Position numbers and translations under genes: made by a program. From Candidatus Levyibacteriota bacterium (GTDB lineage Bacteria; Patescibacteriota; Microgenomatia; Levybacterales; UBA12049): a stretch of 64,000 nt of DNA. The DNA lies in contig JACOXU010000001.1 of assembly GCA_016182185.1 (NCBI GenBank), positions 402,915 to 466,914 on the forward strand, given 5' to 3'. The notes below the pieces were generated by a model that was not told where the DNA came from, did not search any database, and saw only the letters and a list, made by a program, of their open reading frames with translations. Below are positions 2,388-46,780 of this stretch, one piece after another (within the stretch, counting starts at the first letter, position 1; each line of letters begins with the position of its first letter).

Positions 2388-2700
2388 AACTCTGGAGAGA
2401 GAGTAAGCCAGATTCTGTTTCTACCGCAATCTATCTACGCCCTTTACTTGATGCTTCCGTAAGGGAGTATAGCGCATCATTCTAAGGTTGCAGCAGGTAG
2501 GATTGCCCGTTTCACTTTCACTCGTCTCTGTTGCTCTCAAGTCTTGTCAATTCAAGACCTGTTTCAAACTCCGCATGTGAATAAAGAGTCTGAACACCGT
2601 TTTCCCGGAGCTTACGCTCCGTCCCTTCCTTACTGCTGTCTGGACTTTCCTCCCCAATCATGTTTTAGGTGATCGGGGTAGCGGTTCTTCTCCCCAGAGC
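2388..2700 (-). ncRNA. rnpB: RNase P RNA (bacterial type A)
   Basis: The minus strand reads GCUCUGGGGAGAAG...GGGGAGGAAAGUCCAGACAGC (P4 5' half, matching GGAAAGUCC) and ...ACAGAAUCUGGCUUACUCUCUCUCCAGAG-UUUUUU (P4 3' half, ACAGAAnCnGGCUUA). A P1 helix pairs CUCUGGGGAGA with UCUCUCCAGAG. The length of about 310 nt is right for this RNA. Confidence 0.8.
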
Positions 2701-35940: not shown

Positions 35941-37128
35941 TTAGGCAATTACCTTCGTGATTACTCCTGCGCCGACGGTTTTTCCGCCTTCCCGGACTGC
36001 AAATCTGAGTCCTTCTTCCATAGCAACAGGGACGATGAGTTTGACTGTCATTTTGGTGTTGTCACCAGGCATGACCATTTCAACTCCTTTAGGAAGTGCG
36101 ACTTCTGCTGTTACATCGGTTGTTCTTATGTAAAATTGCGGTCTGTAGCCTGTAAAGAACGGTGTGTGGCGTCCGCCTTCTTCTTTGGTCAGGATATATA
36201 CTTCTGCTTCAAAATCTTTGTGGGGCTTAATACTGCCCGGTTTGGCAATGACCTGTCCTCTCTCAACATCGTCTTTTTCAACACCTCGAAGAAGAAGCCC
36301 TACATTGTCTCCTGCCTGTCCTTCATCGAGTTGCTTCTTAAACATCTCAACTCCGGTTACGACTGTAGATTTGGTATCTTTGATACCGATAATTTCAACT
36401 GTCTCATTGACTTTAACGACTCCTCTTTCAATTCTCCCTGTTACGACTGTTCCTCGTCCCTTGATTGAGAAAACATCCTCAACAGGCATTAGGAACGGCT
36501 TTTCCAAATCTCTCTTGGGAGTTGGAATGTAACTGTCAACTGCTTCCATAAGAGCCTGAATTTGTTTTTCTGCTTCCGCGTCTCCCTCAAGAGCCTTAAG
36601 TGCCGATCCTCTTATAATTGGCACATCATTTCCTGGGTACTGGTATTTGGTAAGAAGTTCTCTTACTTCCATTTCAACTAAATCCAAAAGCTCAGCATCC
36701 TGAACCATATCACACTTATTCAAGAAAACTACGATAGAAGGAACCTGTACTTGATGGGCAAGAAGAATGTGTTCTCTGGTTTGAGGCATGGGACCGTCTG
36801 GAGCAGACACTACAAGAATGGCACCGTCCATTTGAGCGGCTCCTGTAATCATGTTCTTTATGTAATCTGCGTGTCCCGGAGCATCGATGTGAGCATAGTG
36901 TCTTTTCTCAGTCTCATATTCGATGTGGGTAATATTAATTGTAACTCCTCGGGCTTTTTCCTCGGGAGCATTATCGATATCTTCATATTTCTTGGCTGTT
37001 GCTTTACCTGCTTTGGCCAAAACAGTAGTAATTGCCGCAGTAAGCGTAGTTTTACCATGGTCAACGTGACCGATTGTACCGATATTTACGTGTGGTTTTG
37101 TTCTTTCAAATTTTTTTGCGTCTGCCAT
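35941..37128 (-). CDS. tuf: Elongation factor Tu
   Basis: [15 protein letters not shown] and the [26 protein letters not shown] motif. Confidence 0.98.
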
Positions 37129-37221: not shown

Positions 37222-37791
37222 TTAGAGTGGTAATTTTATTTGCTCAGAAGTTACATAAGCGGTATCAGGAACTATTGACAATACAAACGCAGGTCTTTCC
37301 CATGTTCGAATCTCATAAGAAATTCTACCAGAGACCACAGTATAATCCCATCTCTCATAACCATTTGTACCATCGTGCAGTATTTCTTCTCGTTTGGAAT
37401 CTTTTCCTGAATAAACTCCCATCCTGCCTGAAAGGAGTTTATGAATTGTTGGAAGATCTGTACTTCGAGATTGTCCTGCTTGCGGATAACGATTTATAAA
37501 TTGTGGGGGTCTTAAAATTCTACCCCAAAGAAGAATAAAATCTAGAGACAATCTATCTAACCTATGAATTCCTGAATATAAATGTATAATTTTGGCATCT
37601 GGTCTTATTTCAAATGAAGGATTTAATTCGACATGACTACCTTGGGCACTATAGCCAAGCCGTACAAGCTCCTTATCAGCAATTTCCTGATAATGAGGCA
37701 CAAATTCTTCTAAAATCCGTCTTGATCCTTCCCTTTGTAATTCAGGGAGAAATTGTTCCTGCCTGATTCCGGACTCAACTGTCGAAAGCAC
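37222..37791 (-). CDS. Hypothetical protein, cupin-like paralog E
   Basis: The C-terminal AFVLSIVPDTAYV is shared with the neighbouring ORF (VAVVLVIMPDTADIP). HDGTNGYERWDY is a possible cupin motif 1. Confidence 0.4.
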   Translation of the reverse strand: MLSTVESGIRQEQFLPELQREGSRRILEEFVPHYQEIADKELVRLGYSAQGSHVELNPSFEIRPDAKIIHLYSGIHRLDRLSLDFILLWGRILRPPQFINRYPQAGQSRSTDLPTIHKLLSGRMGVYSGKDSKREEILHDGTNGYERWDYTVVSGRISYEIRTWERPAFVLSIVPDTAYVTSEQIKLPL

Positions 37792-37852: not shown

Positions 37853-38446
37853 TTAAGCTGCTTTTTCTTGTCGAGGGATATGAAGTTCTTCGTCAGGAAT
37901 ATCTGCCGTATCAGGCATGATTACCAAAACGACTGCAACACCTTCTGAAATTTCCGCCTGATGGTAAGTTTCCGGTGGAACCATTACATGTGGCGCTGCA
38001 CTACTCAGCGTTACAACCTTCGCACTTTCTTCATTCTCATCATCCATCACAAGATCCATGGATCCTATCAAGCTGATATAGTGCTCGACCACCCTTCTTC
38101 CTTTATACGAATGCTTATGTTCGGATGTCCTGCCGATTGATTCGCCATTCTCTTCGGGTTCCGGTTTTAAAACATAACCATAGATCCTGTAATTGTTTAT
38201 TTTTTGCTCAAGGAAATAGTGGCCGTCGGACTTATGGCCATTTGACTTTATATGTCTTTCTGTCTGTTTCTTGAAATTCAACTGGCTTATATCATCAACG
38301 ATTTTAAGCCATTTAAGAGGCTTGAAAGTAAGCTCCCTATAACCGGGTGCCAATAAATTTAAATCCTCGTGGCTCAGGCTACCATTTGTTTTTCTATTTA
38401 CTGCTTCAGGGTTTATTCCCGTATTTGTTTCTGCTCTTGCTGCCAT
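37853..38446 (-). CDS. Cupin-domain protein, paralog F
   Basis: GRTSEHKHSYKGRRVVEHYISLIG has the spacing G(x)4HxH(x)8E(x)6G. PPETYHQAE fits P-x-x-x-x-H-x-x-x as cupin motif 2. A TATAAT box lies 8 nt before the ATG. Confidence 0.5.
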   Translation of the reverse strand: MAARAETNTGINPEAVNRKTNGSLSHEDLNLLAPGYRELTFKPLKWLKIVDDISQLNFKKQTERHIKSNGHKSDGHYFLEQKINNYRIYGYVLKPEPEENGESIGRTSEHKHSYKGRRVVEHYISLIGSMDLVMDDENEESAKVVTLSSAAPHVMVPPETYHQAEISEGVAVVLVIMPDTADIPDEELHIPRQEKAA

Positions 38447-38524: not shown

Positions 38525-40639
38525 TTACTGTGCCGAAACTCTTCCTGTAAAGGTAGATTTGGCAAGCATCTGCTCTTGAATATTCCTGGGAACTTCTTCA
38601 TAGTGTGACGGCTCCATATAATAGGATGCTCTTCCCTGCGACATCGATCGCAAAGTCGTGGCATAGCCGGAAAGCTCTGCCAAAGGAACCATGGCAAGTA
38701 TTATTGTAGCACGAGTCCTTTCCTCGGTTCCCAAAATTTGAGCTCTTTTGGAAGATAAATCCCCGATAACATCTCCCATAAATTCAGATGGGGTTGTCAC
38801 TTCAACTTTCATAATTGGCTCCAAAAGTGTAAGCTCTGCTTTTTTGCTAGACGCCTGAAGAGCTTGAGAAGCTGCAATTTTAAATGCCACATCAGATGAA
38901 TCAACATCATGATAGCTTCCGTCATAAACCGTAACTGTCATATCTACCATTGGGTAACCCAGGAGTATCCCATTCTCCATTGTTTCCTTGACTCCTTTTT
39001 CAACTGATGAAACAAATTCTGCCGGAATGGCTCCACCTTTTATGGCATCGACAAATTCAAATCCTTCACCTCGAGGTTTTGGCTCAACGCGCAGGAAACA
39101 ATGTCCATACTGACCACGGCCTCCGCTTTGTCGAATATATTTTCCTTCTGCTTCTGCCATTTTTTTAATAGTCTCCTTATAGGCTACCTGCGGCGCACCA
39201 ACATTGGCAAGCACGCTGAATTCTCTCTTCATTCGGTCAACCATAACCTCGAGTTGCAGTTCTCCGATTCCTGAAATAATCGTCTGGCCTGTCTCATGAT
39301 TTGTTTTAATAACAAATGTCGGATCTTCCTCCGAAAGTCTCTTCAAGGCAAAGCCTAATTTTTCCTGGTCCACCTTGGTCTTGGGTTCAATTGCCAAAGA
39401 AATAACCGGTTCCGGGAAAGAAATCTTTTCCAAAATTATCGGGGCTTTTTGATCACACAATGTATCTCCGGTAACAGTTTCTTTAAGCCCGACGAGTGCT
39501 ACGATTTCACCGGCCACCGCTTCTTTAAGTTCTTCCCTGGTATTGGCGTGCATAAGTAAAATTCGGCCGACTCTTTCTGTTTTATTTTTTGTACTATTAT
39601 GGATATACGAGCCTGATACGACTTTTCCTGAATAGACTCTAAAGTATGTAAGTTTTCCTACGTGAGGATCGATCTGAATTTTGAAGGCAAGTCCTGAAAA
39701 AGGATCCTCTGGAACTAATTTTCTTGCGATAGGCTCATTGGTCTTGGGATCTACACCATGTACTTCTTTAAGATCGACCGGTGAAGGAAGATAATCAATT
39801 ACAGCATCGAGAAGGGGTTGTACTCCCTTATTGCGGAGCGAAGATCCTGCATAAATTGGGACCAATTTATATGCGATTACCGCAGCTCTTAGAGCTTTTT
39901 TTAAGTCCTCCAGCGCTGGTTCTTCGCCTCCCAAATATTTTTCCAAAAGCGCATCATCTGTTTCGGCAATTTTTTCAATAAGTTTATGGCGGTACTTTTC
40001 TACCTCATCTTTCATATCAGCCGGGATTTCATCCGAAACTTCAAATTTGGCACCCAATTCATCTGACCCCCAGACAATTGCCTGACGGGTAAGAAGATCT
40101 ACAGTACCTTTAAATGTTTGCTCTGCTCCGATTGGCAAAACCATTATTGCAGGATTTGCACCTAGCCTGTCTTCAATACTTTTTACAGTTGCCAGAAAAT
40201 CAGCGCCGAGCTTATCCATCTTATTGATAAAGCAGAGCCGTGGCACCTTGTATTTGTCTGCCTGTCTCCAGACAGTTTCGGACTGCGATTGAACTCCTTC
40301 TTCGGCATCTAGTACTGTGATTCCACCGTCAAGAACACGCAAAGATCGCTCTACTTCTGCAGTAAAATCTACATGCCCGGGAGTATCAATAATATTTATT
40401 CTGTGGTCTTTCCAAAAAGCAGTTGTTGCGGCTGATACTATAGTAATGCCTCGTTCTTTCTCCTGCTCCATCCAGTCCATTTGAGTGGTTCCGGCATCAA
40501 TATCCCCAATCTTGTAAGTTTTTCCTGTATAAAACAAAATACGCTCGGTAGTCGTAGTTTTGCCTGCGTCAATATGGGCAATAATTCCGATGTTTCGGAT
40601 TTTGTCTAGTGTATATTCTTTTTTCTTCGTTTCCGCCAT
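38525..40639 (-). CDS. fusA: Elongation factor G
   Basis: [16 protein letters not shown] and the [21 protein letters not shown] motif, over a full length of 704 aa. Confidence 0.98.
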
Positions 40640-40739
40640 AAAAAAATAAAACTCGCTCCCGCCCTTTACGGGACGAATTTATTAAACAAAGTATAACATA
40701 TTTCCTATTCATATTCCAGACAGTGATATAATAATTTAG

Positions 40740-41465
40740 ATGAAAAGTGAATCAGTCATTATAAAGAGCGATGGACATAATCTTTCAGGAACTATTATAA
40801 AACCCGATGGAAATGAAAAGATCCCTGCAGTTGTCTTCTATCACGGCATGATAAGCCAGAGTAAACCCCGATATATTAAACGTGCAGAAGAATTAGCAAA
40901 AGTTGGAATTTCCTCTTTGTGCTTTGACTTTCGAGGCTGCGGTGAAAGTGAAGGAAAACTCGGAGAATTAACTTTGAAAGATTGGCTTGACGATTCAATT
41001 TTGGCTTTTGATTATCTTATCAATCAAGAATTCGTCGACAAAGATAGGATTGGAATAATGGGCAAAAGTTTTGGCGGAGAAATGGCAGCGCTTGTTGCTG
41101 AAAAAAGAAACGTTAGATCAATTGTTCTACATGCGCCTGCTGTTTATCCGGATACGTGGTTCGATGATAAATTTACCTGGGATGAAGAAATAAGCAGAAA
41201 AAGAAAAGAATACAGAAATTCAGAGAAAGCCCTGGATAATAATGCGATAAGAGCGATAGAAAAATTCAAAGGCTCATTATTAGTGGTAGGAAGCGAACTT
41301 GACGGTACATGTCCCAAAACTATAGTTAAAGGTTATTATGAACAGGCAGGATCAACAGACAAAAAAATCGAATGGATAAAAGGTGCCGATCATCCGCTCA
41401 AAGACGAATTCCATAACCACCAACTCACAAAACTCATGCTTGATTGGTTCTCAAAAACCCTTTGA
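40740..41465 (+). CDS. Alpha/beta hydrolase (dienelactone hydrolase / S9 peptidase-like)
   Basis: Nucleophile elbow GKSFGG, with an acid residue in ELDG and a His in GADHPL. A TATAAT box lies 7 nt before the ATG. Confidence 0.7.
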   Translation: MKSESVIIKSDGHNLSGTIIKPDGNEKIPAVVFYHGMISQSKPRYIKRAEELAKVGISSLCFDFRGCGESEGKLGELTLKDWLDDSILAFDYLINQEFVDKDRIGIMGKSFGGEMAALVAEKRNVRSIVLHAPAVYPDTWFDDKFTWDEEISRKRKEYRNSEKALDNNAIRAIEKFKGSLLVVGSELDGTCPKTIVKGYYEQAGSTDKKIEWIKGADHPLKDEFHNHQLTKLMLDWFSKTL

Positions 41466-42065
41466 CTAAATTACTGCGAGGACGGAGAAGTATTGATTTT
41501 GCCTTCGTTCTTCTTGCAAATGTCTTTGTAAAGTATCTTCCGGTGCAGCCGAAATTGAAACATGTAAAGGTAACGACCCTTCAGGTCCTTTAATAACAAA
41601 AGATGGATCATGGTTATTATAGTCGAGAAAAAATGGACCGGTTTCTCTTATCGCTTTTCCATTCTCTCCAAACATGGTAACTTTTACCACTTTATAACTT
41701 TCGGTGTGATCTGGAAAATATCTAAAATCTAACCCATATTGTTTGGCAAAGTCAGAAACTGTATCAATGGTTCGGTCGATTAATCCTACTCGCATGGCTG
41801 TATTGGCCGGTGCAGAATTTAAAATTCTAAGATCTATATCGTTTAAGGGGTGGAATCGTTTTCTTTCCGGTTTTACAGAGCTGCCAATAGCTATGACTCC
41901 TATTTTCTCTCCTTGAAAAAATTGACCGTTTTCTTGAAAAGCGGCGATTAATCTTTGGACTCTTTCTCTATCTATTCCGCTAAGAGTATCTAAATATTCA
42001 CTTGATGGAATCTCTCGTCCTCTTTTTCCTCTTACAATTTCTCCAGCTCTTTCTATAATTTGCAT
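41466..42065 (-). CDS. Polymerase-beta superfamily nucleotidyltransferase-domain protein
   Basis: IGSSVKPERKRFHPLNDIDL matches hG[GS]-x(9-13)-Dh[DE]h. It lies 12 nt downstream of rpsG on the same strand. Confidence 0.55.
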   Translation of the reverse strand: MQIIERAGEIVRGKRGREIPSSEYLDTLSGIDRERVQRLIAAFQENGQFFQGEKIGVIAIGSSVKPERKRFHPLNDIDLRILNSAPANTAMRVGLIDRTIDTVSDFAKQYGLDFRYFPDHTESYKVVKVTMFGENGKAIRETGPFFLDYNNHDPSFVIKGPEGSLPLHVSISAAPEDTLQRHLQEERRQNQYFSVLAVI

Positions 42066-42077
42066 AAGTTTAAAAAC

Positions 42078-42551
42078 CTACCACTTGAAGTGGGCGAAGG
42101 CGCGATTGGCTTCTGCCATGCGGTGGGCTACATCTCTTTTCTTGACTGCATCTCCCTTGTTTTCCAAAGCATCCATAAATTCTGCTGCCAGTTTTTCAGG
42201 CATTGTATGATATTCTTTGTTGGGTCTTGATTTCGCGGCTTGAATTATCCAGCGGATCGCAAGAGATGTTCTTCTGTCTCCTCTTACTTCAATGGGAACC
42301 TGATATGATGCTCCTCCGACTCTTCTGGCTTTTACCTCCTGTTTGGGCTCTACATTTCCAACACTTTTTTCAAAAACTTCCAAGGCATCCTGCCCCTTTT
42401 CTGAAATAATTTTCAACGCCTGGTAAAAATTTTTTTCAGCCACTGTTTTTTTGCCGTCTTTCATCAAATTATTGATAAACTTTGCCGCAAGCCTACTGTT
42501 ATAAATTTTATCAGGATTTATTTGTCTTTTTTTGGTTTTCTTGTGTCTCAT
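42078..42551 (-). CDS. rpsG: 30S ribosomal protein S7
   Basis: MRHKKTKKRQINPDKIYNSRL... Confidence 0.95.
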   Translation of the reverse strand: MRHKKTKKRQINPDKIYNSRLAAKFINNLMKDGKKTVAEKNFYQALKIISEKGQDALEVFEKSVGNVEPKQEVKARRVGGASYQVPIEVRGDRRTSLAIRWIIQAAKSRPNKEYHTMPEKLAAEFMDALENKGDAVKKRDVAHRMAEANRAFAHFKW

Positions 42552-42553
42552 AA

Positions 42554-43033
42554 TTACGCTGTTTCTGCCGGCGTAGGTGATGCCTCAGGAGCCGGTGTTC
42601 CTTGAGCGACTCTTGGAGCACTGCCTCCGCCTCGCTTGGTTCCGTATTTGCTTCTTGATTTCTTCCTTCCCTCAACTCCGGCAAGATCAAATTTTCCTCT
42701 TACAATATGGTACTTTACCCCGGGTAAATCTTTTACTCTTCCTCCCCGGACCAAAACGATTCCGTGCTCAGAAAGTGCATGTCCGATGCCCTGAATATAA
42801 GCAGTCACTTCCATTTTGTTTGAAAGTTTTACTCTTGCGACTTTTCGAAGCGCTGAATTAGGCTTCTTAGGAGTCATTGTTTTGACCAAAGTTACCACGC
42901 CTCTTTTTTGCGAGGACGGAATGTTTTTGTAGACCTGGTTTTTGGCATTAAAGAGTCGTCTTAAAGCTGTTGAACGAGTCTTTTTGATCTTTTTCTTTCT
43001 TTTTTTTCTTGCTAACTGTGATAATGTAGGCAT
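42554..43033 (-). CDS. rpsL: 30S ribosomal protein S12 (with N-terminal and C-terminal extensions)
   Basis: ...[17 protein letters not shown]...[19 protein letters not shown]... Confidence 0.95.
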
Positions 43034-43051
43034 GGCGTATGATTATAGCAT

Positions 43052-46000
43052 TTATTGCGCGGCCTCTTCAACTGCGGCTTGACCTGAATCAACCGGGATA
43101 AGACGTCCGATAATAACGTTCTCCTTAAGCCCGATCAGCTTATCTTCCTGCCCCTGAAGCACCGCTTCTGTGAGAACCTTTGTTGTTTCCTGGAAGGATG
43201 CCGCAGAAAGCCAAGAATCTGAAAATAGAGATGATTTGGTGATCCCCAAAAGAATTTGCCTTGCAGTGGCAGGCTCTCCTCCTTGAGACAGCATCTCCGC
43301 ATTGATCTCTTCAAATCTTTTTTTGGTAATAAAGTCGCCTGGAATAAGCGAAGTGTCTCCAACTGTCTCAACAACTACCTTGTCTGACATTTTTCGCAAT
43401 ACTACTTCAAAATGTTTGTCATTAATTGATATTCCCTGAGATTCATAAACTTTTTGAGCTTCTGAAAGAATGTATCTTTGAGCATCTATTAATCCATTGA
43501 TTCTGAGAATCTCCTTAGGATCAAGGTATCCTTCAGCAAGCGGAGTTCTTGCGGAAATTGTGTCCCCGTCTGCTACTTTAAGCTCTGAAGACATGGGAAT
43601 AAAGTATTCCTTCTCTTCCACCGGTTTTACTCTTGAGTTTCTTATTCTGACTATGTTGCCGTCGTCTGTTTTTTCAATGCCTACCTTCCCTGAAATCTCA
43701 GAAATTGGAGAGAGATTTTTTGGTGTTCTCATTTCGAACAATTCCTCAACACGAGGAAGTCCTTGTGTCACGTCAGACATTACTACTCCTCCGAAATGTC
43801 TGACTCTCATCGTAAGCTGGGTTCCTGGCTCTCCGATCGATTGAGCTGCCATAACTCCAACTGGAACTCCAGGATTTACTTTTTGCTTGGTTGAGAAATC
43901 CCACCCATAGCACTTGGCACACATTCCATAATCAGCCTTACATGTAAGGGGAGACCTAACAATTAATTCTTCGATTCCGCTATCATCGATTAGTTTTACT
44001 TTCTCTTCATCGATCTCTTCTCCTGCCTTAAGAATTATTTTCTTACTCTTTTTGGATGAAATATCTTTGACAGTAAATCTTCCCAAAATTCTATCCGAAA
44101 AAAGAGAAGTTCTATCAGGACTTTCTTTAAGGATTGTAATTCCATCAGTCGTTCCGCAATCTTCGCTTCTTATAATCACATCGTGAGAGACATCAACTAA
44201 CCTTCTAGTTAAATATCCTGCATTTGCGGTTTTAAGCGCCGAATCAGTAAGTCCCTTTCTTGAGCCTCTCGCACTTGCCACATATTCAAAAATTGAAAGT
44301 CCTTCGCGGAAATTGGACTTGATCGGCAGTTCAACTATTTTCCCTAAAGGATCGAGAATAAGCCCTCTCATGGCAGAAAGCTGTTTAACCTGTTCCTTTC
44401 CGGCGCGGGCACCTTCAGAGTCAATAATCATTTTGATTGGATTTTCTCCTTTCAAAATTTTCCAGGTTCGGTCGGCGAGATCATCGGTAGTTTTTAGCCA
44501 AACTTCATTACTTAATCGTTTTCTCTCTTCATTGGTGATTAATCCCTGCTGATACTCAAGCTCTATTTCCGTTATTTTCTTCTCAGCTTCTCTGATATCT
44601 TCCTCCTTCTTAGACACCATTTCATTATCAAAAACTGATACCGATGTTCCTGAAACTGTTGATCCGTAAAAACCCAAAGTTTTTATATTATCAATTAGAG
44701 CCTCTACTTCTTCATGTGAACATTTGGCGATAGCGATTGTAATAAGCTTTTTAATACCCGAGGCTTTAATGGGTGCATTAATGAAATCCAAAACTTGTGG
44801 CAATTTTTCGTTGAAAAGAATTCTTCCAACACTTGTTTCCATCAAATCTGCCTCAATTCTAACTTTGATGGGTTCTCTATATTTAATTCTTCCCAATGAA
44901 TGAGCAAGAATTGCTTCTTGAGCGGACATAAAAATGGGTGAATTTTCTTTCCTTAAAGATTCGTCAATCGTTGTAAGGTAATATACTCCGACTGCCATTT
45001 CCTTATTGGGCAAAGTTATGGGGCTTCCGTCCGCAGGTTTTAGTAAATTATGTCTTGGCATCATAAGACCGATGGCTTCTTCTTTGGCCTGGGAAGATAA
45101 AGGAATATGTACTGCCATTTGATCTCCGTCAAAATCCGCATTATATCCAGCACAGACACAAGGATGAAGGCTGATTGCAGATCCTTCAATCAGAACCGGA
45201 TAAAATGCCTGAATGCCGAGCTTATGAAGCGTTGGAGCGCGGTTTAGTAGCACCGGATGATCTTTGGTAATTTCTTCGAGGATATCAAATACCTCAGGAG
45301 GTCTTTTTTCGATATATCTTTTTGCCGACTTTATGTTTGGAGCAAATCCTCTAACTATGACCTCGCGCAAAACAAAAGGCTTAAACATTTCAAGGGCGAT
45401 TTCTTTGGGGAGTCCGCATTGGTAAAGGTTGAGCTGCGGCCCAACAACAATAACCGAACGTCCTGAATAATCAACTCTTTTACCCAAAAGGTTTTGTCTG
45501 AATCTTCCCTGTTTCCCGCGCAACATATCGGAAAGTGAACGAAGAGGAGACGAAACTACCTGATTGGAACGTTGTGATACATCAATCAATGAGTCAACAG
45601 ATTCTTGAAGCATTCTCTTCTCGTTTCTCAAGATTATTTCAGGCGCCCCCAATGAAATCAAATGCTTAAGTCGGTTATTTCTATTAATTACTCTTCGATA
45701 TAAGTCATTTAAATCAGATGTGGCAAAGCGACCTCCTGCAAGTTGAACCATTGGACGAAGATCAGGGGGAAGAACCGGTAAAACGTTGAGGATCATCGAT
45801 GACGGTGCTACACCGGCTGCCCTCATGGACTCGATAAGGCGAAGCCTCTTAATAAGCTTGAGGTATTTTTGGCCTTTAGATTTCTCTGTTTCGGTTCTTA
45901 ACTTCACAATAAGATCAGGAAGATTAATTTTATTTAAAAGATCAAGAATTCCTTCAGCTCCAGTCTTGAGGGTGAAAAAAACTGGGATATCGTATTCCAA

Positions 46001-46780
46001 AATTTTTGTATATTCATCTTCCGATAAAACTGATCCTACTTTTAAACTCTTTATAAGTTTGGAGAGGGCATCATGTATTTCATCAACTTTTTTTTCTTCC
46101 TCGGAAAGTCTGGTTTGAAGACTTGCGATTCTTTGACGCTCAGTTAGATCCAACTCCTGATAAATGAGATCCTTCTGTTCATTTCGAAGTTTTCCAGTCT
46201 TCACTTCTTTCTTTTTTTCCTTAATCTCGTCAGTAATTTCTTTCTCTTCGGCCGAAATTTCGTCTCTTTGTTGTTTCTTTCTCTTGTAGATATTCTTCAT
46301 AAAGGTTTCAAGAGCTGCTTTTTTCTTCTCTTCATCCATATCGACCACTAAAAATGAAGCGTAATAGACTACAGATTCAAGACTTTTCTGAGGCATATCA
46401 AGAATCAGAGATAAAGGAGAAGTCGAACCTTTGAAAAACCAAACATGCGAAACAGGAGAAGAAAGAACAATATGACCCATCCTTTCTCTTCTTACTCTTG
46501 AAGTCGTTACCTCAACACCACACTTGTCACAAATCACGCCTCTGTGTCTTATTCTTTTGTATTTTCCGCAATAGCATTCCCAGTCTTTTGTGGGCCCAAA
46601 GATTCTTTCGTCAAATAATCCGTCCTTTTCAGGCCTCAAGGTTCTATAGTTTATAGTCTCAGGCTTGGTAACCTCGCCATATGACCATGAAAGTATGTCG
46701 TCTTTACTTGCCAGTAAAATCTTTAATGACTTGAAATCCAAGATAGTTATATCTCTTACTTTTTTATCATTTTTGTTCAT
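43052..46780 (-). CDS. rpoC: DNA-directed RNA polymerase subunit beta'
   Basis: NADFDGDQMAVH catalytic loop and zinc-binding Cys residues, over 1242 aa. Confidence 0.98.
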   Translation of the reverse strand: MNKNDKKVRDITILDFKSLKILLASKDDILSWSYGEVTKPETINYRTLRPEKDGLFDERIFGPTKDWECYCGKYKRIRHRGVICDKCGVEVTTSRVRRERMGHIVLSSPVSHVWFFKGSTSPLSLILDMPQKSLESVVYYASFLVVDMDEEKKKAALETFMKNIYKRKKQQRDEISAEEKEITDEIKEKKKEVKTGKLRNEQKDLIYQELDLTERQRIASLQTRLSEEEKKVDEIHDALSKLIKSLKVGSVLSEDEYTKILEYDIPVFFTLKTGAEGILDLLNKINLPDLIVKLRTETEKSKGQKYLKLIKRLRLIESMRAAGVAPSSMILNVLPVLPPDLRPMVQLAGGRFATSDLNDLYRRVINRNNRLKHLISLGAPEIILRNEKRMLQESVDSLIDVSQRSNQVVSSPLRSLSDMLRGKQGRFRQNLLGKRVDYSGRSVIVVGPQLNLYQCGLPKEIALEMFKPFVLREVIVRGFAPNIKSAKRYIEKRPPEVFDILEEITKDHPVLLNRAPTLHKLGIQAFYPVLIEGSAISLHPCVCAGYNADFDGDQMAVHIPLSSQAKEEAIGLMMPRHNLLKPADGSPITLPNKEMAVGVYYLTTIDESLRKENSPIFMSAQEAILAHSLGRIKYREPIKVRIEADLMETSVGRILFNEKLPQVLDFINAPIKASGIKKLITIAIAKCSHEEVEALIDNIKTLGFYGSTVSGTSVSVFDNEMVSKKEEDIREAEKKITEIELEYQQGLITNEERKRLSNEVWLKTTDDLADRTWKILKGENPIKMIIDSEGARAGKEQVKQLSAMRGLILDPLGKIVELPIKSNFREGLSIFEYVASARGSRKGLTDSALKTANAGYLTRRLVDVSHDVIIRSEDCGTTDGITILKESPDRTSLFSDRILGRFTVKDISSKKSKKIILKAGEEIDEEKVKLIDDSGIEELIVRSPLTCKADYGMCAKCYGWDFSTKQKVNPGVPVGVMAAQSIGEPGTQLTMRVRHFGGVVMSDVTQGLPRVEELFEMRTPKNLSPISEISGKVGIEKTDDGNIVRIRNSRVKPVEEKEYFIPMSSELKVADGDTISARTPLAEGYLDPKEILRINGLIDAQRYILSEAQKVYESQGISINDKHFEVVLRKMSDKVVVETVGDTSLIPGDFITKKRFEEINAEMLSQGGEPATARQILLGITKSSLFSDSWLSAASFQETTKVLTEAVLQGQEDKLIGLKENVIIGRLIPVDSGQAAVEEAAQ

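What the first reader, a model, noticed from the sequence alone, without database searches (positions are those of the whole stretch)
40740..42065. Nucleotidyltransferase gene fused onto the rpsL-rpsG transcript, with a convergent alpha/beta hydrolase, between rpsG and fusA
ORF 41466-42065 starts 12 nt after rpsG on the same strand. Its product carries the minimal polymerase-beta nucleotidyltransferase signature IGSS-x13-DIDL.
It abuts, tail to tail and with no spacer, a plus-strand serine hydrolase (GKSFGG nucleophile elbow, Asp in ELDG, His in GADHPL). A minimal nucleotidyltransferase co-transcribed with S12 and S7 is not part of any canonical str operon.
Candidate roles are a nucleotidyltransferase that adenylates antibiotics, tRNA or mRNA, or half of a toxin-antitoxin or defence-type nucleotidyltransferase pair.
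fusA then needs its own promoter in 40640-40739. A weak TCCCG/CGGGA hairpin followed by a U-run lies just 5' of the fusA ATG.
Basis: partly seen in the sequence, partly recalled or inferred. Interest (0 to 1): 0.55.

Follow-up and report, generated by a model that had tools for sequence, protein, structure and literature searches.

The report
Orphan nucleotidyltransferase gene trailing rpsG
A small uncharacterised enzyme gene of the nucleotidyltransferase fold sits just after ribosomal protein gene rpsG in a Candidatus Levybacteria genome, but this slot holds different genes in close relatives, so it looks like an accessory passenger, not a new part of the ribosomal operon.

Summary
A 199-aa ORF (41466-42065, minus strand) starts 12 nt after rpsG. 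It ends flush against a convergent 241-aa alpha/beta hydrolase. The motif is IGSS-x12-DIDL, not x13.

ORF-X has no Pfam, NCBIfam or PADLOC hit that passes a threshold. Two AlphaFold models (pLDDT 79.5 and 87.7) match almost only Pol-beta-type nucleotidyltransferases in PDB, and mainly such enzymes in BFVD. These matches are weak (E about 1e-3, TM 0.3-0.46). A family profile aligns the GS...DxD block with the MNT protein HI0073 (E 0.019).

The family is small and unannotated: 92 clusters at 50% identity among 1.84 billion representatives. The few named members are Patescibacteria. G61 is invariant and S62, D76 and D78 are above 90%.

Across about 16 distinct loci the neighbours vary. The rpsG-X arrangement recurs once, with a 6-nt spacer. 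No HEPN or other partner was found.

In the closest relatives (S7 78-90% identical) the slot after rpsG holds a LysM-like ORF, an HTH gene or nothing. The hydrolase is conserved in three of them. fusA has a conserved extended -10 promoter and a leader hairpin.

Verdict: an accessory, probably active nucleotidyltransferase of a new family sits in a rearrangement-prone slot. Its substrate is unknown. Interest is low to moderate.

The parts
42554..43033 (-). rpsL (ribosomal protein S12, 159 aa). It is the first ribosomal gene of the unit that ORF-X trails.
   Evidence: Pfam Ribosom_S12_S23 at 2e-31. A promoter-like site, TTGAAG-18-TATAAT with an upstream TG, lies at 43071-43042 inside the rpoC 3' end.
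42078..42551 (-). rpsG (ribosomal protein S7, 157 aa).
   Evidence: Pfam Ribosomal_S7 at 3e-56. The product is identical to NCBI 'MAG: 30S ribosomal protein S7 [Candidatus Levybacteria bacterium]'.
42066..42077 (-). 12-nt rpsG to ORF-X spacer (GTTTTTAAACTT). There is no room for a promoter and no significant structure.
   Evidence: The junction folds no better than shuffles (z -0.31). The terminator-like CCACT/AGTGG hit is a 5-bp stem made by the HFKW codons and is absent in L008.
41466..42065 (-). ORF-X, 199 aa: a divergent Pol-beta-fold nucleotidyltransferase of an unannotated family. It carries GS (61-62), DxD (76-78) and the conserved strand LPLHVSIS (165-172).
   Evidence: family and conservation. 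(models). (fold matches). (sub-threshold profile matches to nucleotidyltransferase families).
40740..41465 (+). Convergent alpha/beta serine hydrolase, 241 aa, with Ser110 in GKSFGG, Asp188 and His218. It is the clade-conserved insertion between rpsG and fusA.
   Evidence: Pfam Hydrolase_4 and Peptidase_S9. PDB esterases and serine hydrolases at E 6e-27. Orthologues sit at the same place in L018 (80% identity), L028 and L019 (truncated, 64%).
40690..40698 (-). Extended -10 element TGTTATACT of the fusA promoter, inside the 100-nt divergent intergenic region 40640-40739.
   Evidence: AAATATGnTATAC is invariant in the window, L018, L028 and L019. The function is inferred.
40640..40680 (-). fusA leader: a hairpin (40649-40680) followed by UAUUUUUUU that runs up to the fusA AUG. 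It looks like a terminator or attenuator.
   Evidence: Fold energy -15.8 kcal/mol, z -2.3. L019 has a hairpin with a different upper stem at the same place, before the same U-run. Attenuators upstream of fusA have a precedent (PMC2965389).
38525..40639 (-). fusA (EF-G, 704 aa), separated from rpsG by ORF-X and the hydrolase.
   Evidence: translation. Orthologous loci are annotated with EF-G Pfam domains.

Best explanation
ORF-X is a lineage-restricted accessory gene. It encodes a small, probably active enzyme of the Pol-beta nucleotidyltransferase fold and belongs to a previously undescribed family.

**Inferred chemistry.** The GS loop and the D76-x-D78 pair bind NTP-Mg2+. The enzyme then transfers an NMP onto a hydroxyl group of an acceptor. 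The acceptor is not identified. I lean weakly towards a small-molecule or protein acceptor rather than RNA. The reasons are an acidic-to-neutral family pI, the lack of any RNA-binding neck or body domain, and a C-terminal beta-rich module in place of the helical domains of ANT, PAP and CCA enzymes.

**Genomic logic.** In this Levybacteria clade the str operon was split after rpsG, and the region downstream of rpsG is rearrangement-prone. ORF-X occupies the slot at the 3' end of the rpoBC-rpsL-rpsG unit. It is most likely expressed by read-through, and possibly by translational coupling from rpsG. fusA is driven by its own conserved extended -10 promoter and has a terminator-like leader hairpin.

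**Shown:** the gene, the family, the conserved motifs, the fold class, the variable context and the conserved fusA promoter sequence.

**Inferred:** catalysis, co-transcription and the acceptor class.
For: **The gene is real and conserved**
- It has homologues at 39-48% identity by BLASTP.
- 92 cluster representatives were found, 33 of them at E<1e-30.
- The start codon region aligns with P0003.

**Fold**
- The models have pLDDT 79.5 and 87.7, with pTM 0.76 and 0.82.
- The top 50 PDB matches are almost all Pol-beta-type nucleotidyltransferases or their homologues. They include OAS1, 3wfr/4wby tRNA nucleotidyltransferases, CutA, URT1, CdnC, GLD-2, TUT7 and FAM46C, with probability up to 1.0.
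- The best viral matches are phage 'nucleotidyltransferase' and 'PolyA pol head domain' proteins, with TM 0.44-0.46.

**Motif**
- The profile aligns GS...DxD onto HI0073, aadA and OAS2.
- Nine of 66 members touch NTP_transf_2. Two each touch Polbeta and DUF294.
- G61 is kept in 100% of members, S62 in 95%, D76 in 91% and D78 in 92%.

**Accessory, variable slot**
- The loci are those of the closest S7 relatives. Percentages give the identity of each locus's S7 protein to the window's S7.
- L017 (S7 90% identical) has an unrelated LysM-like ORF in the slot.
- L018 (87%) and L028 (86%) have empty gaps of 250 and 472 nt with no ORF-X remnant.
- L019 (78%) has an HTH_31 gene.
- L026/L027 (85%) have convergent TrpR-like and RibD_C genes.
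- Family members elsewhere follow tgt, dnaB or an acs-like gene, or stand alone.

**Expression**
- The GC content of ORF-X equals the window mean.
- The rpsG-X junction is unstructured.
- The fusA promoter is conserved.
Against: - All fold matches are weak. E is only 1e-3 to 5e-2, TM normalised to the query is 0.24-0.46, and rmsd is large.
- No curated nucleotidyltransferase model passes its threshold.
- No invariant third carboxylate lies on a strand after the DxD. The conserved candidates are H168 (88%) and E186 (89%).
- The rpsG-X arrangement recurs in a second genome at only 48% protein identity (L008). This could mean the position is selected rather than accidental. A tgt-X arrangement also exists, so three contexts are translation-related.
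- The Foldseek neighbours are mostly RNA-acting enzymes, which runs against my lean towards a non-RNA acceptor.
- No transcript data exist.
Confidence: 0.62

Rival explanations
1. ORF-X is a translation-linked nucleotidyltransferase. It would add nucleotides to an RNA 3' end (tRNA, rRNA or mRNA), or nucleotidylate a ribosomal component. Under this reading its position after rpsG is functional, because coupling to S7 synthesis would tie its dose to ribosome production.
For: - rpsG-X occurs in two genomes whose ORF-X proteins are only 48% identical, with spacers of 12 and 6 nt.
- A third member lies 36 nt after tgt, the tRNA-guanine transglycosylase gene.
- The Foldseek top hits are RNA-specific nucleotidyltransferases: tRNA nucleotidyltransferases, CutA, URT1, TUTases and GLD-2.
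Against: - The slot is filled by unrelated genes, or is empty, in the five closest S7 relatives. No ORF-X remnant is left.
- About 13 of 16 contexts have no translation gene directly upstream.
- The protein is short and lacks the neck, body or RNA-binding domains of CCA, PAP and TUT enzymes.
- The family median pI is 6.0, which is not basic.
- PDB composition biases Foldseek towards TUTase and OAS entries.
Confidence: 0.17
2. ORF-X is a small-molecule (antibiotic-type) nucleotidyltransferase, similar in action to ANT or Lnu enzymes. Placed next to the gene for S12, the streptomycin target, it would give constitutive expression of a resistance function.
For: - The family profile gives weak alignments to streptomycin 3''-adenylyltransferase AadA (6sxj, E 0.81) and ANT(3'')(9) (7uy4, E 2.6) over the GS...DxD block.
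- The protein is small, stand-alone, partner-less and non-basic.
- It lies in a variable, accessory-like genomic position.
Against: - Those E-values are not significant, and they cover only the universal nucleotidyltransferase core.
- NCBIfam, which carries the curated resistance nucleotidyltransferase models, gives nothing.
- The modelled C-terminal half is beta-rich. It is not the helical substrate domain of ANT(3'')/ANT(4')/ANT(6)/Lnu (the comparison rests on my own knowledge of those structures).
- No mobile-element hallmarks are present, and the GC content equals the genome mean.
Confidence: 0.1
3. ORF-X is the MNT-type half of a toxin-antitoxin or defence pair. It would be an AMPylating antitoxin, or a sensor or effector nucleotidyltransferase.
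For: - The best sequence-profile match in PDB is HI0073, the MNT protein of the HI0073/HI0074 pair (E 0.019).
- MNT antitoxins AMPylate their HEPN partner (PMC7641770).
Against: - No HEPN or other recurrent adjacent gene appears in any of about 16 contexts.
- PADLOC returns no defence nucleotidyltransferase or HEPN model for ORF-X or its neighbours. The only line is a sub-threshold 14-bit PglZ match.
- ORF-X is about 60-100 aa longer than MNT proteins. It has an extra conserved C-terminal module.
Confidence: 0.04
4. ORF-X is a catalytically inert nucleotidyltransferase-fold protein, acting as a binding or scaffolding protein, or a decaying passenger gene.
For: - There is no clear third carboxylate.
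- Four of 66 family members have Asn at D76 and four at D78.
- The gene is dispensable in close relatives.
Against: - The window protein keeps G61, S62, D76 and D78. These are the most conserved columns of the family.
- The ORF is intact, and conservation runs over its full length against homologues at 39-48% identity.
Confidence: 0.07

Closest known systems
Pol-beta-like nucleotidyltransferase superfamily (Pfam clan members NTP_transf_2 PF01909, Polbeta PF18765, DUF294 PF03445)
   Same: - The hG-S motif follows the first strand, and D-x-D sits on the second strand 12 residues later.
- The order is helix-strand-helix-strand-helix.
- Nearly all PDB fold matches, and the best BFVD ones, belong to this superfamily.
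   Different: - No member model reaches its gathering score. The best is 17.8 bits against a cutoff of 21 for one family member, and the window protein has no hit.
- There is an extra conserved C-terminal module with the motifs DPSF and GLPLH[IV]SISG.
- No invariant third acidic residue is present.
MNT (minimal nucleotidyltransferase) antitoxins of HEPN-MNT type VII toxin-antitoxin modules, e.g. HI0073 (PDB 1no5) and MntA
   Same: - This is the best sequence-profile match in PDB, aligned over the helix-GS-DxD core (E 0.019).
- Both are small and single-domain in scale.
   Different: - There is no adjacent HEPN gene in any context.
- ORF-X is 199 aa, against about 100-140 aa for MNT proteins.
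- The match is below significance.
Small phage 'PolyA polymerase head domain' / nucleotidyltransferase proteins (e.g. UniProt A0A411AWC7, 186 aa, Providencia phage PS3)
   Same: - This is the best global structural overlap, with TM 0.44/0.46 over 195 columns and probability 1.0.
- The length is similar, and both are head-domain-only nucleotidyltransferases.
   Different: - Sequence identity is only 8% and E is 2.6e-3.
- Those proteins are themselves uncharacterised, and they are viral.
- ORF-X lies in a cellular genome, with native composition.
Canonical str operon (rpsL-rpsG-fusA-tuf) with S7-mediated control and attenuators upstream of fusA
   Same: - The gene order rpsL, rpsG ... fusA ... 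tuf is kept on one strand.
- A terminator-like leader lies upstream of fusA. Attenuators upstream of fusA are reported for streptococci and Pelagibacter (PMC2965389).
   Different: - rpsG and fusA are separated by ORF-X and a convergent hydrolase.
- fusA and tuf are separated by two further ORFs.
- In all six related loci rpsG is not followed directly by fusA.

Membership tests
Pol-beta-like nucleotidyltransferase superfamily | Core alpha-beta-alpha-beta-alpha-beta fold with a mixed sheet. | tested here: met
   The AF2 models (pLDDT 79.5 and 87.7) show H30-45, E55-60, H61-64, E77-83, H90-109 and E113-117. Nearly all top Foldseek hits in PDB, and the best in BFVD, are nucleotidyltransferases, with probability up to 1.0 but E only about 1e-3.
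Pol-beta-like nucleotidyltransferase superfamily | hG[GS] motif after strand 1. | tested here: met
   The sequence is IAIGSS at 57-63. G61 is kept in 66 of 66 members and S62 in 63 of 66.
Pol-beta-like nucleotidyltransferase superfamily | [DE]h[DE]h metal-binding pair on strand 2, 9-13 residues after the G[GS]. | tested here: met
   D76-I-D78-L lies 12 residues after IGSS. D76 is kept in 60 of 66 members and D78 in 61 of 66. The block aligns to the DLDL of HI0073.
Pol-beta-like nucleotidyltransferase superfamily | Third carboxylate on a neighbouring strand. | tested here: inconclusive
   No acidic column on a strand after residue 80 exceeds 73%. The conserved candidates are H168 (88%) on strand 167-171 and E186 (89% Glu, 92% acidic) in helix 179-188.
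Pol-beta-like nucleotidyltransferase superfamily | Mg2+-dependent transfer of NMP from NTP to an acceptor hydroxyl. | not testable with these tools
   This needs biochemistry.
HEPN-MNT (type VII) toxin-antitoxin, MNT component | Two-gene module with an adjacent HEPN-domain gene (PMC7641770). | tested here: not met
   The neighbours in the window are rpsG and a hydrolase. No HEPN gene and no recurrent neighbour appears in L001-L016 or L020-L025. PADLOC gives no defence nucleotidyltransferase or HEPN model.
HEPN-MNT (type VII) toxin-antitoxin, MNT component | Significant match to MNT, NTP_transf_2 or Polbeta models. | tested here: not met
   The window protein has no Pfam or NCBIfam family at E<0.07. 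The family profile against 1no5 gives E 0.019.
Antibiotic nucleotidyltransferases (ANT(2''), ANT(3'')(9), ANT(4'), ANT(6), Lnu) | Sequence membership in a curated ANT or Lnu family. | tested here: not met
   NCBIfam gives no such hit. The PDB profile gives AadA at E 0.81 and ANT(3'')(9) at E 2.6, over the core motif only.
Antibiotic nucleotidyltransferases (ANT(2''), ANT(3'')(9), ANT(4'), ANT(6), Lnu) | C-terminal helical substrate-binding domain (from my own knowledge of ANT structures). | tested here: not met
   In the model, residues 113-198 are mainly beta strands with one helix at 179-188.
CCA-adding enzymes, poly(A) polymerases and terminal uridylyltransferases | Head domain plus neck, body or PAP-associated domains. 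Typical length is above 300 aa. | tested here: not met
   ORF-X is 199 aa. Foldseek covers only 24-46% of the query by TM score and 8-24% of the PDB targets. There is no PolyA_pol or PAP_assoc Pfam hit.
Canonical str operon | rpsL-rpsG-fusA-tuf are contiguous and co-directional. | tested here: not met
   ORF-X and a convergent hydrolase lie between rpsG and fusA. Two ORFs lie between fusA and tuf. Relatives show similar interruptions.
Alpha/beta hydrolase fold (the convergent neighbour) | Nucleophile elbow G-x-S-x-G, then Asp, then His in that order, with significant family matches. | tested here: met
   GKSFG is at 108-112, D188 is in ELDG and H218 is in GADHPL. Pfam gives Hydrolase_4 at 1.7e-19 and Peptidase_S9 at 4.5e-16. 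PDB matches are 9w30 and 3ksr at E 6e-27 and 2e-26. The motifs are kept in the L018 orthologue.

The most novel reading that the evidence does not exclude
ORF-X founds a Patescibacteria-specific family of compact nucleotidyltransferases. Their dose would be coupled to S7 and ribosome synthesis, and they would nucleotidylate a component of the translation apparatus: a tRNA or rRNA 3' end, S12/S7, or a ribosome-targeting small molecule. The family would use an unusual active site in which a His (H168) or a helix-borne Glu (E186) replaces the canonical third carboxylate. The recurrence of rpsG-X at 48% protein identity, and of tgt-X, would then reflect function rather than chance.
Probability: 0.1. 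Interest if true: 0.6.

Novelty: new variant of a known kind. Interest (0 to 1): 0.3.

Why it matters
If the reading is right, this is a modest addition. It is an undescribed, rare family of the nucleotidyltransferase fold in ultra-small CPR bacteria, about 90 clusters at 50% identity. It has its own C-terminal module and no curated model.

It also gives a clear example of the conserved str operon being broken in one CPR clade. The break created a slot where unrelated small genes come and go behind rpsG.

It would matter more only if the enzyme acts on the translation machinery or on ribosome-targeting compounds. The present evidence neither shows nor excludes that.

The practical value is for annotation. 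The family can be labelled 'nucleotidyltransferase-fold protein, uncharacterised'. The rpsG-fusA hydrolase insertion can serve as a synteny marker for this Levybacteria clade.

Tried and rejected
**Searches that gave nothing useful**
- Pfam, NCBIfam and PADLOC on ORF-X gave no hit above threshold. The only lines were DUF1302 0.17, GlnD 0.16 and PglZ 0.0026 at 14 bits. I treat these as noise.
- The first metagenome scan with A1 found nothing. The second, with A4, gave six loci.
- Domain fusions as functional clues failed. The longer members P0036 (438 aa) and P0037 (326 aa) have no Pfam domain in their extra parts.
- Cluster look-up for names and taxa of 10 members returned only 'hypothetical protein' or no name, all singletons.
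- Literature searches found no paper on a nucleotidyltransferase after rpsG in Patescibacteria.

**Ideas tested and rejected**
- Remnants of ORF-X in the empty slots of L018 and L028, or in L017, L019 and L026. None was found by tblastn or blastn.
- The L017 189-aa and L019 186-aa ORFs after rpsG as divergent ORF-X homologues. This was rejected (BLASTP E>1).
- A terminator between rpsG and ORF-X. The 5-bp CCACT/AGTGG hit is made by the HFKW codons. It is not better than shuffles and is absent in L008.
- Horizontal acquisition judged by composition. The GC content of ORF-X is 0.375 against a window mean of 0.372, so there is no signal.
Full report
**1. What is in the sequence**

All of the following genes are on the minus strand:
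- rpoC, 43052-46780
- rpsL, 42554-43033
- rpsG, 42078-42551
- ORF-X, a 199-aa ORF at 41466-42065
- fusA, 38525-40639
- two ORFs of 197 and 189 aa, at 37853-38446 and 37222-37791
- tuf, 35941-37128

A 241-aa plus-strand ORF (40740-41465) lies between ORF-X and fusA.

Pfam confirms S12 (2e-31) and S7 (3e-56). It also confirms an alpha/beta hydrolase for the plus-strand ORF (Hydrolase_4 1.7e-19, Peptidase_S9 4.5e-16).

The spacer between rpsG and ORF-X is 12 nt. The hydrolase stop (41463-41465) and the ORF-X stop (41466-41468) touch.

The ORF-X and S7 proteins are identical to entries from a Candidatus Levybacteria MAG with a 617-kb contig. The GC content of ORF-X (0.375) equals the window mean (0.372).

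**2. What ORF-X is**

No curated library recognises it (Pfam and NCBIfam; PADLOC).

A word-indexed search of 5.8 billion proteins found only four relatives, at 39-48% identity. An exhaustive HMM search of 1.84 billion cluster representatives found 92 proteins at E<=1e-3. Of these, 63 are at E<=1e-10 and 33 at E<=1e-30. Nearly all are 170-240 aa. None of the members looked up has a name other than 'hypothetical protein'.

In a 66-member alignment the most conserved columns are these:

| Residue | Kept in |
|---|---|
| G61 | 100% |
| S62 | 95% |
| P166 | 94% |
| D78 | 92% |
| D76 | 91% |
| E186 | 89% |
| H168 | 88% |
| E18 | 85% |
| R80 | 83% |

This is the pattern expected if the GS...DxD block is the functional centre.

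Two AlphaFold models were made. The first used 5 sequences (pLDDT 79.5, pTM 0.76). The second used 66 sequences (pLDDT 87.7, pTM 0.82). Both place GS at the end of strand 55-60 and DxD at the start of strand 77-83, followed by a long helix at 90-109.

Foldseek against PDB returned almost only Pol-beta-superfamily nucleotidyltransferases and their homologues in the top 50 for both models. They include OAS1, the 3wfr and 4wby tRNA nucleotidyltransferases, CutA, URT1, CdnC, GLD-2, FAM46C and TUT1/4/7. Probabilities reach 1.0, but E is only 1e-3 to 5e-2 and TM (normalised to the query) is 0.24-0.38.

Against viral models the best hits are phage 'nucleotidyltransferase' and 'PolyA polymerase head domain' proteins. 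One is a 186-aa protein with TM 0.44/0.46.

The family profile against PDB sequences puts the MNT protein HI0073 first (E 0.019). AadA and OAS2 follow, all aligned on the GS...DxD block. Nine of 66 members touch NTP_transf_2 below threshold.

I conclude that ORF-X has the nucleotidyltransferase fold and is probably active. It is not a member of any described family. Its C-terminal half carries the conserved motifs DPSF and GLPLH[IV]SISG and has no counterpart that I could identify. A canonical third carboxylate is not evident.

**3. Is the position after rpsG meaningful?**

*Family contexts.* The family members whose DNA I could read give about 16 distinct contexts:

| Locus | Arrangement |
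|---|---|
| Window | rpsG then ORF-X, 12-nt spacer |
| L008 | rpsG then X, 6-nt spacer; the upstream 15 codons read HRMADANKAFSHFRW*, an S7 C-terminus; convergent PNPOx-like and S51 peptidase genes follow |
| L013 | tgt, then X after 36 nt, then a TrpR-like gene |
| L024 | dnaB-like gene, then X |
| L025 | acs-like gene, then X |
| L021 | X between a 154-aa and a 191-aa ORF; no domain search was run on these |
| L001-L006 | X a few genes after dnaG-rpoD |
| L007 | X after a methyltransferase gene, 390 nt upstream |
| L009, L011, L012, L014, L015/L016/L020, L022, L023 | X alone, or between opposed genes |

No neighbour recurs, and there is no HEPN gene. That removes the toxin-antitoxin or defence-pair reading.

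*S7 relatives.* The loci of the closest S7 proteins show what occupies the slot in relatives. Percentages are S7 identity to the window protein.

| Locus | S7 identity | After rpsG |
|---|---|---|
| L017 | 90% | unrelated 189-aa LysM-like ORF, then a convergent RibD_C gene |
| L018 | 87% | 250 nt of non-coding DNA, then the convergent hydrolase (80% identical), fusA, a 194-aa ORF, tuf, rpsJ |
| L028 | 86% | 472 nt, then the hydrolase, then a co-directional partial ORF where fusA lies in L018 and L019 (not checked) |
| L026/L027 | 85% | convergent TrpR-like and RibD_C genes |
| L019 | 78% | an HTH_31/DUF3467 gene, a truncated hydrolase (139 aa, 64%), then fusA |

tblastn and blastn find no trace of ORF-X in any of these loci.

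So the operon is broken after rpsG in every relative examined. The hydrolase is the conserved insertion in a sub-clade. The slot immediately after rpsG is variable.

ORF-X is one of several alternative occupants. The second rpsG-X case, at 48% protein identity, keeps open the possibility of an older or favoured association. It does not make ORF-X an operon member.

**4. How it is probably expressed**

The 12-nt spacer leaves no room for a promoter. The junction folds no better than shuffled sequence (z -0.31).

The only terminator-like hit there is a 5-bp stem made by the HFKW codons. It is not conserved in L008.

A promoter-like site, TTGAAG-18-TATAAT with an upstream TG, lies at 43071-43042 in the rpoC 3' end. 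Read-through from rpoBC and/or this site into rpsL-rpsG-X is the simplest reading. This is an inference.

ORF-X and the hydrolase have no space for terminators between them. Convergent transcripts would therefore overlap, which is also an inference.

Upstream of fusA, the block AAATATGnTATAC (an extended -10) is invariant in the window, L018, L028 and L019.

The leader then forms a 13-bp bulged hairpin (40649-40680, -15.8 kcal/mol, z -2.3). A UAUUUUUUU run follows, directly before the AUG. L019 has a hairpin at the same place with different upper-stem bases and the same U-run.

Terminator-type attenuators upstream of fusA have been reported in other bacteria (PMC2965389). This element could attenuate fusA expression, or it could stop antisense read-through coming from rpsG-X. 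Neither has been tested.

**5. Mechanism and rivals**

The best-supported statement has two parts:
- ORF-X is an NTP-dependent NMP transferase whose acceptor is unknown.
- It is carried as an accessory gene at the end of a highly expressed unit.

Against an RNA acceptor:
- The protein is small.
- It has no neck, body or RNA-binding domains.
- The family median pI is 6.0.

For an RNA or translation-linked acceptor:
- The Foldseek neighbours are mostly RNA-acting enzymes.
- Three contexts are translation-related: rpsG twice and tgt once.

The antibiotic-nucleotidyltransferase idea rests only on non-significant core alignments to AadA and ANT(3'')(9). It is not supported by NCBIfam.

The MNT antitoxin idea fails its defining test, an adjacent HEPN gene.

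An inert protein is unlikely, because the catalytic columns are the best conserved in the family.

**6. Novelty and score**

The fold is known. The family is undescribed, rare and so far seen only in Patescibacteria-type contigs. It has a distinctive C-terminal module and an unclear third metal ligand. I rate it a new variant of a known kind.

The genomic arrangement is a lineage-specific break of the str operon with a variable slot. It is not a new operon design.

A specialist would find it mildly interesting. It does not open a long-standing question. Interest is 0.3.

The most novel reading that remains possible is a ribosome-coupled nucleotidyltransferase acting on the translation apparatus with an atypical active site. 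I give it about 10%.

Noticed in passing
window 40640-40698 (minus strand); L019 7795-7847: The fusA leader has an invariant extended -10 (TGnTATACT) in four related loci. A hairpin of -15.8 kcal/mol and a U7 run then lead directly to the AUG. L019 has a hairpin at the same place with different stem bases. The element looks like a terminator or attenuator, or a stop for antisense read-through from rpsG-X.
   Followed up: partly
window 2392-2697 (minus strand): The RNase P RNA of this Levybacteria (bacterial CPR) genome scores best with the archaeal Rfam model RF00373. The score is 86.5 bits, just above the gathering score of 84. No bacterial RNase P model was reported.
   Followed up: no
window 37222-37791 and 37853-38446 (minus strand): Two ORFs of unknown function (189 and 197 aa) lie between fusA and tuf. 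The 197-aa ORF has a weak cupin-like hit. Each has a promoter-like site upstream. The 197-aa ORF is conserved at the same place in L018 (53%) and L019 (31%). The 189-aa ORF is weakly similar to the L019 copy, so the two may be paralogues.
   Followed up: partly
window 42554-43033 (minus strand): S12 is 159 aa. It has a Pro/Ala/Thr-rich C-terminal tail ([25 protein letters not shown]) beyond the Pfam S12 domain. The S12 genes of the related loci are 156-160 aa, so the extension seems to be clade-wide.
   Followed up: no
window 43042-43071 (minus strand): A strong promoter-like site, TTGAAG-18-TATAAT with an upstream TG, lies inside the rpoC 3' end. Its -10 ends 9 nt before the rpsL ATG. If used, it would give a nearly leaderless rpsL mRNA.
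   Followed up: no
L019 7327-7746: The hydrolase orthologue between rpsG and fusA is truncated to 139 aa. It keeps the Ser elbow but lacks the Asp and His parts, so it is probably a pseudogene or a split gene.
   Followed up: partly
alignment A2 (family members): Four of 66 family members have Asn at D76 and four at D78. I did not check whether these are the same proteins. They may be catalytically inactive paralogues.
   Followed up: no
L012 (contig CAZFVS010000100.1): A family member lies on a contig labelled 'uncultured Gammaproteobacteria' MAG. Its neighbours are dnaB, a uridine-kinase-like gene and an AAA_18 kinase gene. The contig has runs of N. The label may be a binning error, given that all other named members are Patescibacteria.
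   Followed up: no
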